Origin: an uncultured bacterium
Lineage (GTDB): Bacteria; Actinomycetota; Acidimicrobiia; Spongiisociales; UBA5794
NCBI GenBank assembly: GCA_963801165.1
Contig: CAWDDT010000006.1
Coordinates: forward strand, 480,001-544,000
Direction: 5' to 3'
Length of the DNA stretch: 64,000 nt
Position 1 is the first letter of the stretch; every line of letters begins with the position of its first letter. A model generated the notes under the pieces. That model did not search any database, was not told the origin of the DNA, and saw only the letters and a program-made list of their open reading frames with translations. Below, in pieces: positions 1,477-42,516 of the stretch. The position numbers and the translations under genes were made by a program.

Positions 1477-2625
1477 ATGCGTATCGGCATTCTCACCGGC
1501 GGTGGCGACGTACCGGGTCTCAACCCGTGCATCAAGGCCGTGGTCAACCGGGTCAGCGAGGCAGGTCACTCCGTCGTCGGTATCCGGCGCGGGTGGGGCG
1601 GTCTCCTCAACGCCAACCCGGAGGATCCGGAGAGCTGGAACGAGCACATGCTGGAGCTGACACCGCAGACCGTACGCACAGTCGACCGCTCCGGAGGCAC
1701 CTTCCTGCATACCTCGCGGACAAACCCGGGCCGGGTCAGGGTGGCCGACGTGCCCGATTTTCTCTCCGACCGCGCCGAGGGGGACGGGCCGTTCGACTTC
1801 ACCGACCACGCTCTCAAGGTCGTCGACAAGCTCGGCATCGACGTGCTCATCCCGATCGGCGGCGACGATACCCTCTCCTACGGGCTCAGGCTCCACCAGG
1901 AAGGGGTGCCGGTGATCGGCATCCCCAAGACGATGGACAACGATGTGCATGGGACCGACTACTGCATCGGGTTCTCGACGGCGGTGAGCCGGGGCGTTCA
2001 GTTCATCCACAATCTGCGCACCGCGACCGGCTCGCACGAGCGCATCGCCGTAGTCGAGCTGTTCGGCCGCTACAGCGGTGAGACCGCACTGATGACCGCA
2101 TACCTCGCGGGTGTCAAGCGAGCCCTCATCTCAGAGGTTCCCTTCAACATCGACCATCTCGCCGACCTCCTGATCGCCGACAAGGCCTCCAATCCCTCCA
2201 ACTACGCGATGGTCACCATCTCCGAAGGCGCCACGATCGAAGGTGGCGACATGGTGCTGTCCGGCAAGGAGGACGCATTCGGCCACCGCAAGCTCGGCGG
2301 CATAGGAGCTCACACCGGTGAGCTCCTCAAGGAACGCACCGGTGAGGGCATCATCTTCCAGCAGGTCGCCTACCTGATGCGCTCGGGAGCCCCCGACTCG
2401 TTGGACCTCATGGTCGCCCTCAACTATGCGGTGATGGCGGCGGACCTAGCCATGGAGGGCGCCAGCGGGCGCATGGTGGCGCTGCGAGGCGGCACCTACA
2501 CCAGCGTCCCGATCAGCGTCACCGGTGAAGGGGTCAAGCGGGTCGACGTATCCGAGCTATACGACATCGAGGGCTACCGGCCGAAGGTACGTCACGTCAC
2601 CGGCAAGCCGATGTTCCTCTATTAG
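1477..2625 (+). CDS. pfkA: 6-phosphofructokinase, PPi-type signature
   Basis: [30 protein letters not shown] motifs; GGAGG RBS before ATG 1477. Confidence 0.9.
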
Positions 2626-2655
2626 GGATGTTCCTCTATTAGGGATGTTCCTCTA
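2610..2655. repeat. 17-bp tandem repeat (GATGTTCCTCTATTAGG x2.7) duplicating the pfkA 3' end and stop codon
   Basis: Copies read directly at 2610, 2627 and a partial copy at 2644. Confidence 0.95.
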
Positions 2656-2681
2656 GTACGAGGGTGCGGCGCCGTTCGTTC

Positions 2682-3131
2682 TCAGGGCACCAACAACACC
2701 GGGCATTGTGCGTCGTGCACGATGCGGTTGGCCACCGACCCGAGCATGATTCTCTCGATCAGCCCGGCTCCCCGCCTTCCGATCACCATGACGTCGGCGT
2801 CGACCTGCTCGGCGTAGTCGAGCAGCATGCGCGCCGGGTCGCCCACGTCCTCGACCTGAACAACTTCCATCCCTTCCAGGTCCAGACTGCCGACCACCGA
2901 GTCGAGTATCTCACGCTGCGCCTCGCTGAGTGATTTACTCAGCGCCGACGGGGTAGGCGGCGACCCGACGATCCCCCACCATCCTTCGGGCGGGCGGACG
3001 ATGGTGACGAAGTGCAACACCGCGCCGTTCTTTCTTGCAAGATCGGCGCTCACCCTCGCGGCGTGGCGCGACTGATCAGAGCCGTCGATGCCCACGACAA
3101 CGTTCTGCACATCCCAATCAGGCACATCCAT
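2682..3131 (-). CDS. Universal stress protein (USP domain)
   Basis: VVVGIDGS and GRRGAG...LGSVANRIVHDAQCPVLLVP motifs. Confidence 0.93.
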   Translation of the reverse strand: MDVPDWDVQNVVVGIDGSDQSRHAARVSADLARKNGAVLHFVTIVRPPEGWWGIVGSPPTPSALSKSLSEAQREILDSVVGSLDLEGMEVVQVEDVGDPARMLLDYAEQVDADVMVIGRRGAGLIERIMLGSVANRIVHDAQCPVLLVP

Positions 3132-3255: not shown

Positions 3256-4284
3256 ATGCCGGTAATCGGAGTCCTCACCGCCGGAGGCGACTGCCCCGGT
3301 CTCAACGCCGTCATCCGCGGCGTCACCGTCCGTGCCATCAAGAGTCACGACGCCGAGGTCGTCGGGATTCGGAATGGCTGGGAAGGTCTCATGGAGGGCG
3401 ACACGATCGCCCTCGACCGGGATGCGGTGCGCGGCATCCTCGTTCGGGGCGGCACCATCCTCGGCTCGTCGCGCATGGACCCGTTCGTCCACGGCGACGG
3501 CTACGCCAGCTGCGTCGACACCATCGAGCAGAATGGCATAGACAGCCTGGTCGTCATCGGTGGTGACGGAACGTTGCGCTCGGCGCTGCGGCTCTCCAAG
3601 GAGGGGTTGGCGGTGATCGGGGTTCCCAAGACCATCGACAACGACATCAACGGGACCGACGTCACGTTCGGTTTCGACACGGCGGTGCAAGTGGCTACGG
3701 ATGCGATTGATCGGCTGGTGAGCACCGCCGAGTCGCATAACCGAGTCATCGTGGTCGAAGTGATGGGACGCACCAAGGGATGGATCGCCACCTACGCCGG
3801 GATTGCCGGTGGCGCCGACGCCATCCTCATTCCTGAGCTCCCGTACGAACTCGCGGAGGTAGCCGAGATCATTCGCCGCCGCCACCGACACGGGCAGCGG
3901 TACACGATCGTCGTTGTCGCCGAGGGTATTCCAACACCGCCCGGATCAGCCGCGGAGGAGGTCCGCAAGGACGCCTTCGGGTTCGAACGGCTCGGAGGGG
4001 TGAGCTACCAGGTGGCACGCGAGCTCGAGGAGCTGACCGGCTTCGAGACCCGGGTGTCGGTTCTCGGCTACATCCAGCGAGGTGGCACGCCCTCTGCCTT
4101 CGACCGGGTCCTGGCAACCCGGTTCGGTGTCGCGGCCGCCGATCTCGCGGTCGCAGGCAACACCGGTGTGATGGTGGCTGCGAGGGGCTTGGAGATCGTG
4201 GCCGTGCCGATCGAGGAGGCCTGCGCAAAGATCCGGGGGGTCCCCGACGACCTGTTCGACACCGCGGCGACCTTCTTCGAGTAA
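3256..4284 (+). CDS. pfkA: 6-phosphofructokinase, ATP-type signature
   Basis: TAGGDCPGLN, GGDGT, PKTIDND, EVMGR, LGYIQRGG motifs; AGGAG RBS. Confidence 0.92.
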   Translation: MPVIGVLTAGGDCPGLNAVIRGVTVRAIKSHDAEVVGIRNGWEGLMEGDTIALDRDAVRGILVRGGTILGSSRMDPFVHGDGYASCVDTIEQNGIDSLVVIGGDGTLRSALRLSKEGLAVIGVPKTIDNDINGTDVTFGFDTAVQVATDAIDRLVSTAESHNRVIVVEVMGRTKGWIATYAGIAGGADAILIPELPYELAEVAEIIRRRHRHGQRYTIVVVAEGIPTPPGSAAEEVRKDAFGFERLGGVSYQVARELEELTGFETRVSVLGYIQRGGTPSAFDRVLATRFGVAAADLAVAGNTGVMVAARGLEIVAVPIEEACAKIRGVPDDLFDTAATFFE

Positions 4285-39688: not shown

Positions 39689-39767
39689 CCGAACGGGCGC
39701 GACAGAGCTGCCGCGTCCGTCGGCGGGTTTGGAATCTGGTGCGCACTGGGTTTGTTGGAGGCTCGTT

Positions 39768-40669
39768 CTATTGGTTTCCAGTCAGTTGTTTTGCTCGTTG
39801 TTGGGCATGGTAGGTGTCCTCGAATTCGGTCGGGGGGACGTCGTTGAGGTAGCTGTGGATCCGCTGGGTGTTATACCAATGGATCCAGCCCAAGGTAGCG
39901 AGTTCGACGTCTTCGATGCTGCGCCACGGGCCATGATCCGGTCCGTAGATCAGCTCGGCTTTGTAGAGACTGTTGACGGACTCGGCGAGTGCGTTGTCAT
40001 ACGAATCACCGACCGTCCCGATCGATGGCACCGCTCCGATCTCGTCAAGGCGTTCCCGTAGCGGATACTGGTGAATTGGCTGCCGGCATCGGAATGAGCA
40101 ACGAGCCCTTCAAGACGGGTGCCTCGGGCGAAACGGGCCATCTCTAAAGCGTCGAGGACCATCTGGGTTCTCATATTCGAAGCGACCCGCCACCCGACGA
40201 TGTGGCGGGAGAACGCATCGATGATGAAACACACATACCCAACACCTTGCCAGGTCGGGACATAGGTCAGGTCCGTCACCCACAGCCGGTTCGGCCGGTC
40301 GGCTGTGAAGTCCCGCTCCACCAGATCCGGGGATCTCTCAGCAGCAGGATCAGATTTGGTGGTGCGAACCCGGCGACGACGTGACACACCCTGAATATCG
40401 AGGGCTTTCATGAGACGTCCGACCTGGTCACGGCCAATCGTATGGCCGTCACGTAACGCAGCCTTCCACAGTTTGCGGACCCCATACACCGAGTAGTTCG
40501 CCTGAAACAGCGCCAACAAGACCGGCATCATCACCGCATCCCTGATCGCACGAGCCGACGGTATCCGAGACTTGTTCTCGTAATACGTTGACGGGGCCAC
40601 CTGCAACGTCGCACAGATAGGCTCGACCCCAAAGTCGTCACGATTCTCGTCAATGAACTGCACCATCAC
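39768..40669 (-). pseudogene. IS3 transposase OrfB (DDE), frameshifted near 40056
   Basis: WVTDLTYV, IDAFSR, HSDAGSQF in one frame, then GDSYDNALAES in another; one G appears missing in GGG(G)AACGC. Confidence 0.88.
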
Positions 40670-40699
40670 CTCTGTGGGCGGTCGAGCTAATGGCAGCAG

Positions 40700-40880
40700 T
40701 GAGCCGGCCTTTTGGGGCAGGATTCATCCGGCGGCCATCGGGTCAGCACTAGGTCGAGTGGCACTTTGAGTACTTGGCGGAGATCGTGCGCCCGGTGGCT
40801 GTCGAGAGACGTGGATGGCTGGTGGGATGACGTGCCATAGAGCACTGGGCCATTAGCGAGCCGCATCGTCTCTTGCGCCA
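40700..40880 (+). ncRNA. IS110 bridge RNA (5' hairpin, target-binding loop, donor-binding loop)
   Basis: Guide segments GGTCGAG 40752-40758, GGCGGAG 40776-40782, GGTGGGATGAC 40821-40831 and GCCATTAG 40849-40856 match the target and donor junctions and sit in two stem-flanked internal loops; exact RNA ends are approximate. Confidence 0.88.
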
Positions 40881-40903
40881 ACTTAACCGAACGGAGGAAG
40901 CCT

Positions 40904-42122
40904 ATGCGTTCAGTGTTCGTCGGTCACGATTGGGCCGAAGACCATCACGACATCCACATCGAGAACAGTGAAGGTGAGCGGCTTCATGCTTGCCGCCTCG
41001 ACGACGGGCTCGAAGGCGTCCGACGTCTGCATTCAGTACTCGCAGAACTCGCCGATGACCCGTCGCAGGTCGTGATTGCCACCGAGACCGACCGTGGGTT
41101 GTTCATCACCGCCATGATCGCCGCCGGCTATCAGGTGATCGCGATCAACCCCATGTCGACGGCCCGTTACCGACGAACGCCGGTCAACATCCGGTGCCAA
41201 GTCCGACCGAGGCGATGCGCAGACCCTCGCCGAGGTCGCACGCCTCGACAGCCACAACCACCGGCTCCTAGAACCCGACAGCGACCTTGCTGACGCGATC
41301 AAACACACCGCCAGGGCGCACCAGAACCTGATCTGGACTCGCCAACGCCAGCTCAACCAGCTCCGCTCGGTCCTACGCGAGTTTTTCCCCGCCGCGCTGG
41401 CGACCTTCCCCGAACTGGCACACAGCGACTGCCTCGCCACCCTTGCGGTCGCTCCTTCACCAGCAGCAGTCCACAGCCTGAGCACCGTCCGGATCGCAGC
41501 CGCGCTCCGCCGCGGGGGAACCAAACGCGGCGCCGATGCCAAAGCCGCGACGATCCGGCAAAACCTGCGAGCCGATCAGCTCCGAGCCCCCAAACAGCTC
41601 GAGGCAGCAATGAGCTCCCATGTCACCGCCCTTGTCGCTGTCGCCACCGAACTCTCCCAACAGATCAACCGGCTAGAAACCGAACTCACCGAACTACTCG
41701 ACCAGCACCCCCACGCCAAGATCCTCCAATCGATACCCGGGCTCGGCACCAAACTCGCCGCCCGGCTCCTCGGTGAGTTCGGAGACGCCCCCGACCGCTT
41801 CACCGACGCCCGCAGCCGCAAGAACTATGCCGGCACCTCACCCATCACCAAAGCATCAGGTCGCAGCCACATCGTCATCGCCCGTCGCATCCGCAACACC
41901 CGCCTCGCCGACGCCTGCCACCAATGGGCCTTCGCCAGCCTCTCCCACAGCCCCGGCGCCCGCACGTTCTATGACCAACGCCGAAACCGAGGAGACAGCC
42001 ACAACCGCGCACTAAGAGCCCTATCAAACCGGCTCGTCGGCATCGCTCACGGCTGCCTCACACACCAAACCCCCTACGACGAACACACCGCCTGGGGACA
42101 CCGCTACAACCTCGTCACTTGA
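40904..42122 (+). pseudogene. IS110 DEDD recombinase/transposase with a +1 frameshift near 41173
   Basis: VGHDW, ATETDRG, INP, then KSDRGDA in the shifted frame, SIPGLG, AGTSPITKASG; GGAGG RBS. Confidence 0.88.
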
Positions 42123-42144
42123 CTTTTCTCCGGGTGGGATGTCT

Positions 42145-42463
42145 CCGCCGCAAAGAAAGCCGAAGCCCGCTTCAAAATCTCGTTCGCTCGACGTAACTCC
42201 CGGTTCTCCTGCTCAAGCTTCTTCATCTTGACTCGCTCCGCAGAAGTGATGCCCGCAACACCCCCAGCATCAATCTCAGCTTGGGCCACCCAACGGCGCA
42301 CCGACTCAGAGCCGTAACCCAACTGGTCAGCGACCCGAACCACCGTCCCCTGCGACTCCCCAAGTTCCTCACGAAGCTGGAAAACAAGACGAACCGCCCC
42401 ATCCTTCTCCTCCTTCGTATACCGCCGTATGGTCGGCTTCCCCGGTGATAACTCTCTCGACAT
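42145..42463 (-). pseudogene. IS3 OrfA, split at its C-terminus by the IS110 (last codons at 40666-40686)
   Basis: RRYTKEEK...ESVRRWV...LEQENRELRRANEILKRASAFFAAE. Confidence 0.9.
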
Positions 42464-42516
42464 GGCTCTCATCCTTCCACACTCGAGAGTCTCCAAGAAT
42501 CCCAGGGCGAACCACA

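What the first reader, a model, noticed from the sequence alone, without database searches (positions are those of the whole stretch)
40687..42144. IS110 bridge RNA programmed against an IS3 element: all four guides readable in the sequence
Seen: the element is bounded by a duplicated CT. The reconstructed empty target is GGTCGAG-CT-CCGCC and the circle (donor) junction is GGTGGGATGT-CT-AATGGC. The non-coding left end contains, in order: GGTCGAG(T) at 40752 (identical to the left target); GGCGGAG at 40776 (reverse complement of CT-CCGCC); GGTGGGATGAC at 40821 (10/11 with the left donor plus first core base); and GCCATTAG at 40849 (reverse complement of CT-AATGGC). The first pair lies in an internal loop closed by GCCATCGGG/CCCGGTGGC and GCAC/GTGC. 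The second pair lies in a loop closed by AGAGACG/CGTCTCT and GGCT/AGCC, with a central GTGC-CATAGA-GCAC hairpin. Established: this is the architecture of IS110 (IS621-type) bridge RNAs. Inference: the target is the AAELDRP-coding orfA/orfB junction, which is conserved in actinobacterial IS3 elements. This IS110 would therefore be an RNA-guided parasite of another IS, using it as a multicopy safe harbour and breaking its transposase. The right-hand guides (7-8 nt including core) look longer than the roughly 4-nt wild-type match I recall for IS621, which could mean higher specificity for genome engineering.
Basis: partly seen in the sequence, partly recalled or inferred. Interest (0 to 1): 0.92.

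Follow-up and report, generated by a model that had tools for sequence, protein, structure and literature searches.

The report
RNA-guided IS110 inserted in IS3 hairpin
This is a small mobile element of the IS110 family whose own guide RNA is written to recognise the frameshift hairpin of another mobile element (IS3), a real and neat case of one jumping gene targeting another, but of a kind already described.

Summary
An IS110-family element lies at 40689-42142, bounded by CT, and splits an IS3 element (39737-42514, minus strand) between orfA and orfB.

The bridge-RNA reading holds up:
- Across about 75 homologous loci the scaffold is conserved, with compensatory stem changes.
- The guide columns covary with the flanks. 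The left guide matches 4.57 of 7 positions against 2.12 when shuffled. The right guide matches 4.13 of 6 against 2.24. Both were reached in 0 of 10000 permutations.
- A public metagenome contig carries the same IS3 with exactly these 1456 nt missing.

Every element found with these guides sits at the same site, in diverged IS3 elements: five contexts, plus a sixth seen at one junction.

The target is the first hairpin of the Rfam ALIL frameshift pseudoknot. 15 of 30 sampled ALIL loci hold the exact 14-mer.

Caveats:
- The transposase frameshift is one extra A, absent from three metagenome runs.
- This genome holds only one copy and no free exact target.
- Long right target guides and an IS110 member (ISEc21) that targets IS3 transposase genes are already published.

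Verdict: a new member of a known kind, with a new target site.

The parts
39737..40686 (-). IS3-family host element, orfB half. Includes the terminal inverted repeat at 39737-39760. orfB carries HTH_21 and rve domains and lacks one base near 40055.
   Evidence: Pfam. The 20-of-24 inverted repeat with 42491-42514, and the end of similarity to uninterrupted IS3 relatives at 39734-39746. The missing base relative to 3 intact relatives.
40592..40705 (-). Remnant of the IS3 frameshift-stimulating ALIL pseudoknot (Rfam RF01497). Its 5' stem arm GGCGG has been displaced to 42145-42149 by the insertion.
   Evidence: 48.5 bits, E 7e-11. The model consensus holds GGCGG.AGCUCGACCGCC, which is the reverse complement of the target.
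40680..40688 (+). Left target GGTCGAG plus the left copy of the CT core.
   Evidence: The empty-site contig joins 40686 to 42143.
40689..42142 (+). IS110-family element, 1454 nt between the two CT cores.
   Evidence: A 99.86% identical copy lies in metagenome locus L123. A contig of run X5 skips exactly 1456 nt.
40689..40903 (+). Non-coding left end that encodes the bridge RNA. The structured core is about 40734-40873.
   Evidence: An HMM built from 22 homologues finds this region in 76 hits. Consensus fold. Pair counts.
40734..40799 (+). Target-binding loop. It is closed by GCCATCGGG/CCCGGTGGC and GCAC/GTGC.
   Evidence: Helix 1: 98% of cells paired, and 5 of 9 pairs changed on both sides. 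Helix 2 is invariant.
40752..40760 (+). Left target guide GGTCGAG(TG). The 7 non-core bases equal the left target. The two core positions read TG, not CT.
   Evidence: Family-wide covariation.
40776..40782 (+). Right target guide GGCGGAG, the reverse complement of CT-CCGCC.
40805..40873 (+). Donor-binding loop. It is closed by AGAGACG/CGTCTCT, with the inner hairpin GTGC-CATAGA-GCAC at 40832-40845.
   Evidence: Helices 3 and 4 carry compensatory changes. Helix 6 is invariant. Helix 5 (GGCT/AGCC) is only 65% paired.
40821..40831 (+). Left donor guide GGTGGGATGAC. It matches 10 of 11 bases of the right end plus the first core base.
40849..40856 (+). Right donor guide GCCATTAG, the reverse complement of CT-AATGGC (core plus left end).
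   Evidence: In 3 relatives the core changes to CC together with the guides.
40904..42122 (+). DEDD/IS110 transposase (bridge recombinase) gene. The intact form is 405 aa. In the window it is split by one extra A at 41173.
   Evidence: PF01548 and PF02371. Indel. Contigs of X1, X2 and X3 lack that base. Matches to the IS621 and ISCro4 transposase structures, E 1e-13 and 4e-14.
42119..42144 (+). Right end. It holds TTGACT as a -35 hexamer (42119-42124), the left donor GGTGGGATGT (42133-42142) and the right copy of the CT core (42143-42144).
   Evidence: The circle junction would read TTGACT-17 nt-TCTAAT. TTGAC is kept at the same distance in 55 of 56 relatives.
42145..42514 (-). IS3 host element, orfA half. 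It begins with the right target CCGCC (42145-49) and ends with the terminal inverted repeat at 42491-42514. orfA carries HTH_Tnp_1.

Best explanation
Positions 40689-42142 are an IS110-family insertion sequence of the IS110-proper subgroup: a 405-aa DEDD recombinase with the non-coding region upstream. Its 215-nt left end encodes an IS621-type bridge RNA.

The first internal loop carries two target guides.
- The left target guide is identical to the 7 bases left of the insertion point, so it would pair with the bottom strand.
- The right target guide is complementary to CT plus 5 bases on the right, so it would pair with the top strand.

The second loop carries the equivalent guides for the element's own joined ends.

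The programmed target, GGTCGAG-CT-CCGCC, is the first hairpin (GGCGG-AGCUCGA-CCGCC on the IS3 coding strand) of the ALIL frameshift pseudoknot, which lies between orfA and orfB of IS3-family elements. The element inserted there by exchange at the CT core. This cut the hairpin and separated orfA from orfB, which should stop synthesis of the OrfAB transposase of that IS3 copy.

Shown: anatomy, guide-flank matches, family-wide covariation, repeated use of the same site in diverged IS3 elements, and an empty-site allele.

Inferred: that the RNA is made and bound by the recombinase, the circular intermediate with its junction promoter, and the loss of IS3 activity.
For: Motifs and junctions.

Domains: PF01548 and PF02371. 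Sequence matches to the solved IS621 and ISCro4 transposases.

Scaffold: the bridge-RNA scaffold is conserved in 76 nhmmer hits over 80 homologous loci.

Structure: 87.9% of cells paired against 31-48% when partners are slid by 1-3 columns. 13 of 28 pairs changed on both sides. 0 of 500 shuffles reached the observed covariation score. RNAalifold found the same main stems.

Guide-flank covariation, one site per guide type:
- Left guide: 4.57 of 7 matches against 2.12 +/- 0.21 (35 types).
- Right guide: 4.13 of 6 matches against 2.24 +/- 0.21 (24 types).
- Both were reached in 0 of 10000 permutations, and both still hold without the window's clade.
- Three relatives with a CC core have CC in both right-hand guides.

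Same-guide elements all lie at GGTCGAG-CT-CCGCC in IS3:
- the window and L123
- L027
- L034 and L124
- L028
- L122
- a sixth left junction in contigs of runs X1 and X2

Independent insertions: the window and L027 elements are 81% identical over 1461 nt, but their IS3 flanks align over only 85-143 nt. The window's IS3 aligns over about 950 nt (73-74%) with uninterrupted IS3 copies.

Empty site: a contig of run X5 joins 40686 to 42143, with 4 differences in 395 flanking bases.

Target: it equals the ALIL consensus hairpin. 15 of 30 ALIL loci from other genomes hold the exact 14-mer and 9 more differ by one base.

Junction promoter: TTGACT-17-TCTAAT.
Against: - No RNA evidence. No listed sequencing run is on record as RNA.
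- No contig showed a circle junction.
- Rfam 15 has no family that matches the non-coding region, so there is no curated model to score it against.
- The left target guide does not match the CT core (TG instead). This departs from the IS621 model, in which all four guides include the core (PMC11208160).
- On its own the 215-nt region does not fold much better than shuffles (z = -1.9).
- In this genome the element is single-copy and no free exact target exists.
- Several natural left flanks of relatives match their guide at only 3-5 of 7 positions.
Confidence: 0.9

Rival explanations
1. There was one old insertion rather than targeting. An IS110 element entered an IS3 element once, and the nested pair was then inherited or moved as a unit. 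On this view the shared site says nothing about guide-directed choice.
For: For L028, the IS110 part and the IS3 flanks are about equally diverged from the window, at roughly 70% each. A dead IS3 would drift faster than a selected IS110, which weakens arguments from identity alone.
Against: - The IS3 hosts belong to different lineages. The window's IS3 scores 606, 532 and 513 bits with uninterrupted copies (L156, L142, L145), but only 90-99 bits with the hosts of L027 and L034.
- An empty allele of this very IS3 exists.
- A split IS3 could not make its OrfAB transposase to move the pair.
- Guide-flank covariation across the family is independent of this clade.
Confidence: 0.04
2. The element is a generic sequence-targeting IS110, not an IS3 specialist. 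The bridge RNA directs insertion into any GGTCGAG-CT-CCGCC. IS3 is simply where insertions are tolerated and therefore survive.
For: - Exact 14-mers occur outside IS3 in these GC-rich genomes. Of 12 sampled exact sites in 12 other genomes, only 2 lie next to IS3 OrfB-like sequence, and 1 more has the full hairpin.
- The reversed control pattern is also commonly found. I did not sum its columns.
Against: - All 6 insertion contexts seen are in IS3.
- All share the complete hairpin GGCGG-TCGAGCT-CCGCC, which extends beyond the 14 guided bases.
- A preprint reports that a target stem-loop adds specificity for another IS110 member, ISPpu10 (10.64898/2026.03.19.712850; abstract read).

This rival differs from the best explanation only in why IS3 is the observed host.
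Confidence: 0.3
3. The window copy is a dead relic. It has a frameshifted recombinase and no free target in the genome, so nothing here functions any longer.
For: - An extra A at 41173 splits the ORF.
- The element is single-copy.
- There is no exact free target in the genome.
Against: - The extra base is absent from contigs of 3 of the 3 runs that cover it, and from the 99.86% identical copy L123. It is therefore a private mutation or an assembly indel.
- A presence/absence polymorphism at this site points to recent movement.
- The IS3 relative on contig C9 offers a target with one mismatch, at the far end of the right guide.
Confidence: 0.25

Closest known systems
IS621 and its bridge RNA (Durrant et al. 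2024, PMC11208160; Hiraizumi et al. 2024, PMC11208158)
   Same: - DEDD recombinase plus a Transposase_20 domain.
- Non-coding RNA upstream of the gene.
- Two internal loops, each with a 5' guide that pairs with the bottom strand and a 3' guide that pairs with the top strand.
- CT core.
- A promoter formed by the joined ends.
   Different: - The protein is distant: only the C-terminal domain aligns well (E 1e-13). It is 405 aa against 328 in the solved chain.
- The left target guide lacks core complementarity (TG).
- The right target guide is contiguous, core plus 5 bases, against the four-base RTG used for IS621 in that paper's methods.
- The target is an IS3 hairpin. That IS621 targets REP sequences is recalled, not read here.
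ISEc21 (IS110 family; Siddiquee et al. 2024, PMC11187229)
   Same: An IS110-type element with an upstream non-coding region. Its RNA-defined target is a conserved site inside IS3-family elements, and it forms a junction promoter (passages read).
   Different: [quoted passage not shown] This element targets the frameshift hairpin between orfA and orfB.
- The ISEc21 transposase is 358 aa and belongs to another size class.
- Its hosts are enterobacteria rather than Actinomycetota.
IS4321/IS5075 (IS1111 group; Partridge and Hall 2003, seen only as a reference)
   Same: DEDD-transposase elements that insert at one fixed site inside another mobile element.
   Different: - They belong to the IS1111 group, with the non-coding region downstream and subterminal inverted repeats.
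- Their target is the terminal inverted repeat of Tn21-family transposons.
ALIL pseudoknot, Rfam RF01497 (the target)
   Same: The window's IS3 matches the model over positions 1-117. The target 14-mer is the model's first hairpin. The uninterrupted relative on C9 scores 83.6 bits.
   Different: Here the hairpin is cut by the insertion, so the score falls to 48.5 bits, just under the 50-bit gathering score.

Membership tests
IS110 family, IS110-type bridge-RNA element | N-terminal DEDD (RuvC-like) domain and C-terminal Transposase_20 domain | tested here: met
   PF01548 (46.8 and 58.9 bits on the two halves) and PF02371 (54.3 bits). Matches to the IS621 and ISCro4 transposase chains.
IS110 family, IS110-type bridge-RNA element | Long non-coding region upstream of the recombinase gene and no terminal inverted repeats | tested here: met
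   215 nt lie between the left end and the ATG at 40904. None of the 11 inverted repeats found pairs the two ends of the element.
IS110 family, IS110-type bridge-RNA element | Two internal loops flanked by conserved stems, supported by compensatory changes | tested here: met
   87.9% of cells paired against 31-48% when slid. 13 of 28 pairs changed on both sides. Also.
IS110 family, IS110-type bridge-RNA element | Target loop: the 5' guide equals the left target (top strand), and the 3' guide is complementary to the core plus the right target | tested here: met
   7 of 7 and 7 of 7 in the window. Family-wide, 0 of 10000 permutations reach the observed match. The core part of the left guide is not matched (TG against CT).
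IS110 family, IS110-type bridge-RNA element | Donor loop: guides match the element's right end and left end across the core | tested here: met
   10 of 11 and 8 of 8 in the window. The ends are so conserved that covariation is limited to the CC-core relatives (3) and the TGGGGT variants.
IS110 family, IS110-type bridge-RNA element | Scarless insertion at a 2-nt core, with an empty site that equals left target + core + right target | tested here: met
   A contig of run X5 skips 40687-42142 plus one core copy (1456 nt). The joint is ambiguous by 2 bases.
IS110 family, IS110-type bridge-RNA element | Circular intermediate whose junction forms a promoter | tested here: inconclusive
   The sequence would give TTGACT-17-TCTAAT, and the -35 hexamer is kept in 55 of 56 relatives. 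No circle junction was seen in the contigs.
IS110 family, IS110-type bridge-RNA element | The RNA is expressed, is bound by the recombinase and is needed for recombination | not testable with these tools
   No RNA run is listed. This needs bench work.
IS3 family (the host element) | orfA (HTH) and orfB (rve, DDE) in -1 frameshift arrangement, TG...CA inverted repeats, and a frameshift stimulator | tested here: met
   HTH_Tnp_1, HTH_21 and rve. ALIL hit. 20-of-24 terminal repeats starting with TG. IS3 is 1322 nt without the insert.
ISEc21-like IS110 elements that target IS3 | Target in the codons around the second D of the IS3 DDE motif | tested here: not met
   The site here is the orfA/orfB hairpin. 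It works like ISEc21 in choosing IS3, but at another site and with a different recombinase size class (PMC11187229).

The most novel reading that the evidence does not exclude
IS3-family elements are a regular, selected hunting ground for RNA-guided IS110 elements in Actinomycetota. On this reading, one clade has written its bridge RNA against the frameshift hairpin, which IS3 cannot change without losing its own transposase. The hairpin itself adds specificity beyond the 14 guided bases.

In the same genome, a second and unrelated IS110-family element sits in the other IS3 copy, at the conserved YDNA (catalytic E) codons. Such elements would then act as natural, sequence-programmed silencers of IS3.
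Probability: 0.3. Interest if true: 0.6.

Novelty: new member of a known kind. Interest (0 to 1): 0.45.

Why it matters
This is a clean natural example in which all four bridge-RNA guides can be read directly and checked against an empty allele. It comes from a high-GC actinobacterial lineage far from IS621.

The target is a functional RNA hairpin of another transposon, held in place by both coding and structure. That explains why one 14-mer can serve as a landing pad across many genomes.

The family alignment gives a ready scaffold: invariant stems, guide columns, a contiguous 6-7-nt right guide, and natural CC-core variants. People who mine bridge recombinases could use it.

It adds a second kind of IS3 site to the published ISEc21 case. 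It also raises a testable question: does the target hairpin contribute to recognition?

Tried and rejected
Rfam: the search at E up to 10 over 40300-42500 gave no family for the non-coding RNA. It returned the ALIL hit, a sub-threshold antisense Ms_AS-4 hit, and noise.

Single-sequence folding was uninformative (z = -1.9). Its minimum-energy fold pairs the two target guides with each other.

Own genome: no second copy of the element. No exact free target; there were 22 one-mismatch sites against 24 for the reversed control.

The class-wide count of the exact 14-mer (98 of 301 genomes) is not evidence of IS3 abundance by itself, because the reversed control is also common. I did not sum the control columns. 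The tally includes the unpublished genomes G252 and G292, and nothing else here rests on them. Locus L005 from unpublished G050 was not used.

RNA evidence: no RNA holder is listed for this stretch.

Circle junction: none was seen in the contigs of four runs. Contigs drop rare forms.

Excision footprint: I asked whether the break in IS3 orfB is a footprint of the second IS110 type. It is not. The missing base lies near 40055, not at the 39996 site.

In one search my orfA query was translated in the wrong frame. Only the OrfB query counts there.

Supplementary files of the papers were not opened. Supplementary Fig. 11 of PMC11187229 and the target tables of PMC11208160 may list further IS110 targets inside IS3, including possibly this one.

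No listed paper describes an IS110 target in the IS3 frameshift region. Only listings and the named passages were read.
Full report
**What is in the sequence**

The window holds a nested pair of insertion sequences.

The outer element is an IS3-family element on the minus strand, from 39737 to 42514.
- Its 24-nt ends match at 20 of 24 positions and begin with TG.
- orfA (HTH_Tnp_1) lies at 42145-42465. orfB (HTH_21, rve) lies at 39768-40669.

The inner element runs from 40689 to 42142, between two copies of CT (40687-88 and 42143-44).
- It carries one gene on the plus strand, with the DEDD_Tnp_IS110 and Transposase_20 domains.

In 200000 composition-preserving shuffles of the 204-nt left end:
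- the two target words occur together in 0.14% of shuffles;
- the donor 9-mer occurs in 0.32%;
- the donor 8-mer occurs in 0.20%.

**Is it a bridge RNA?**

A protein-seeded scan of one genome per species returned 80 loci with relatives of the recombinase, at 50-86% identity.

*Scaffold.* An HMM built from 22 aligned left ends found the same non-coding region in 76 hits. Several scaffold words are invariant or nearly so:
- AGCAC before the left target guide
- A[TC]CGTGC after the right target guide
- TGGGAT in the left donor guide
- GAGCACTG
- CCATTAG

- 87.9% of cells are paired, against 31-48% when the 3' partners are slid by 1-3 columns.
- 13 of 28 pairs change on both sides.
- 0 of 500 shuffles reach the observed covariation score.
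- The long stem that closes the target loop is the best supported: 98% paired, with 5 of 9 pairs compensatory.
- The two GCAC/GTGC stems never vary.
- The outer donor stem covaries.
- The GGCT/AGCC stem is weak, at 65% paired.
- RNAalifold finds the same main stems on its own.

**Do the loops covary with the flanks?**

I read the guide columns from the HMM alignment. I read the flanks from the conserved ends: AATGG on the left and TGGG[AG]T[GA]T on the right. Taking one site per guide type:

| Guide | Observed matches | Flanks shuffled | Guide types | Permutations reaching observed |
|---|---|---|---|---|
| Left | 4.57 of 7 | 2.12 +/- 0.21 | 35 | 0 of 10000 |
| Right | 4.13 of 6 | 2.24 +/- 0.21 | 24 | 0 of 10000 |

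- The result holds when the window's clade is left out.
- Match frequency falls with distance from the core. On the left it is 0.94, 0.89 and 0.83 next to the core, falling to 0.37 at the far end. On the right it is 0.92, 0.88, 0.79 and 0.83, then 0.50 and 0.21.
- The effective right guide in this family is therefore the core plus 4-5 bases.
- Three relatives whose junctions read CC instead of CT also have CC in the right target guide and the right donor guide.

There is one departure. In the window's clade the two core positions of the left guide read TG (TT in L028), not CT. 20 of 35 guide types in the family have CT there.

**Is the site really IS3, and is it chosen repeatedly?**

Rfam places the ALIL frameshift pseudoknot (RF01497) at 40592-40705 on the minus strand, with 48.5 bits against a cut-off of 50.
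- The model's first hairpin, GGCGG-AGCUCGA-CCGCC, is the reverse complement of the reconstructed target.
- Its 5' arm has been carried to 42145-49 by the insertion.

Elements with the same guides were found without using the flanks as a query. They came from the protein scan and from a pattern taken from the target loop. All lie at GGTCGAG-CT-CCGCC, in the same orientation, inside IS3-like sequence:
1. The window and L123 (99.86% identical, same flanks).
2. L027, which is also L002, in a genome of the same genus.
3. L034 and L124.
4. L028.
5. L122.

Contigs of runs X1 and X2 show a sixth left junction: a diverged left end behind yet another IS3 flank.

Two copies are irregular.
- L034 has lost about seven bases at its right junction.
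- L028 reads TT at the left core.

These are not one inherited insertion.
- The window and L027 elements are 81% identical over 1461 nt, while their IS3 flanks align over only 85-143 nt.
- The window's IS3 aligns over about 950 nt with uninterrupted IS3 copies of other genomes.

The clearest evidence is a contig of run X5, a soil metagenome. It joins 40686 directly to 42143. It has 4 differences in 395 flanking bases and a 2-base ambiguity at the joint. That is the empty site GGTCGAG-CT-CCGCC in the same IS3.

**How good a landing pad is it?**

- Of 30 ALIL loci from 30 genomes of the class (one of them the window's own contig C9), 15 hold the exact 14-mer. A further 9 differ by one base, 2 by two and 4 by three.
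- ALIL was found in 31 of 121 genomes searched.
- In the window's own genome the picture is poorer. There is one IS110 copy. There are two IS3 relatives, only 75% alike. There is no free exact target.
- The exact 14-mer also occurs by chance in these GC-rich genomes. Of 12 sampled exact sites, only 2 lie next to OrfB-like sequence and one more has the full hairpin.
- All six insertion contexts being in IS3 therefore points either to selection against insertions elsewhere or to a further determinant.
- All six share the whole hairpin. A preprint reports that a target stem-loop adds specificity for ISPpu10 (10.64898/2026.03.19.712850; abstract read). This was not tested here.

**Likely working**

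Excision to a circle would join TTGACT (42119-24) to a -10 hexamer, TCTAAT. That hexamer is made of the last base of the right end, the core and the first three bases of the left end, with 17 nt between the two hexamers.
- The integrated left junction scores only 6 of 12.
- TTGAC is kept at the same distance in 55 of 56 relatives.

The transcript would carry the bridge RNA followed by the recombinase message. The RNA would hold the donor junction in one loop and the IS3 hairpin in the other, and exchange would occur at CT. These steps are inferred from the IS621 and ISEc21 work (PMC11208160, PMC13626964, PMC11187229; passages read). They are not shown here.

Cutting the hairpin and separating orfA from orfB should abolish the OrfAB fusion. 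That is also an inference.

**State of this copy**

- The recombinase gene is split by one extra A at 41173.
- Five relatives lack it, including L123. So do contigs of X1, X2 and X3, which are the 3 of 4 laid runs that cover the place.
- IS3 orfB also lacks one base near 40055, relative to three intact relatives.
- Both may be assembly indels.

**Comparison with what is known**

The element meets the sequence-level features of an IS110-type bridge-RNA element. RNA expression and the circle could not be tested.
- Its protein is far from IS621 (E 1e-13, mainly the C-terminal domain).
- At 405 aa it falls in the size class that Siddiquee et al. give for the subgroup containing IS110 itself.
- The idea that an IS110 member targets IS3 is published. 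[quoted passage not shown]
- Durrant et al. already note right guides longer than those of IS621.
- What is new here is the target (the frameshift hairpin), the lineage, and the missing core match in the left guide.
- I found no paper describing this target in three searches. Supplements were closed.

**Verdict**

This is a new member of a known kind. Interest is moderate.

Noticed in passing
L109 about 1756-3110 (G000 contig C9:432247-433601), minus strand: The genome's other IS3 relative is also split by an IS110-family element, but a different one. Its transposase is 360 aa (PF01548 + PF02371). It sits inside orfB at the ...GDSYDNA... codons.

Its 247-nt upstream region holds:
- TTATGAC, like its left flank;
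- GCGTTGA, the reverse complement of the right flank as it reads in the window's IS3;
- ATAGGAGC, like its right end.

The window's own IS3 carries the matching unoccupied site near 39996.
   Followed up: partly
L035 2496-3950 and 3952-4074: A sibling element lies directly inside the right-target-guide region of another copy's bridge RNA. The guide AGGCCTAG contains its own target, CT-AGGCCT, which is a palindrome. The family can therefore land in itself.
   Followed up: no
window 41173 and about 40055: There are two single-base indels: an extra A in the IS110 recombinase gene and a missing base in IS3 orfB. The first is contradicted by contigs of three public runs, which suggests indel errors in this assembly.
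   Followed up: partly
window 41737-41813, minus strand: Rfam Ms_AS-4 (an actinobacterial antisense sRNA) matches at 46.7 bits, below its 50-bit cut-off. The match is antisense to the Transposase_20 part of the recombinase gene. It is probably homology to an IS110-type gene in the family's seed sequences.
   Followed up: no
L034 about 3950-3960; L028 about 347-348: Two irregular siblings. L034 has lost about seven bases across its right junction and is probably immobilised. L028 reads TT at the left core and CT at the right, and its left guide ends in TT.
   Followed up: no
L051, L056, L093: Three relatives use a CC core instead of CT. CC appears at both junctions, in the right target guide and in the right donor guide. 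Their left guide still ends in CT.
   Followed up: partly
L147, L152 (ALIL loci of other genomes): Some IS3 elements keep the loop AGCTCGA but have changed both arms of the hairpin (GACCG...CGGTC). This is a compensatory change that would also escape this IS110's guides.
   Followed up: no
window 40677-40781, contigs of runs X1 and X2: The same salt-marsh metagenomes hold a second, diverged copy of the left end (10 differences in 105 nt) behind a different IS3 flank. Several members of the clade therefore coexist in one habitat.
   Followed up: partly
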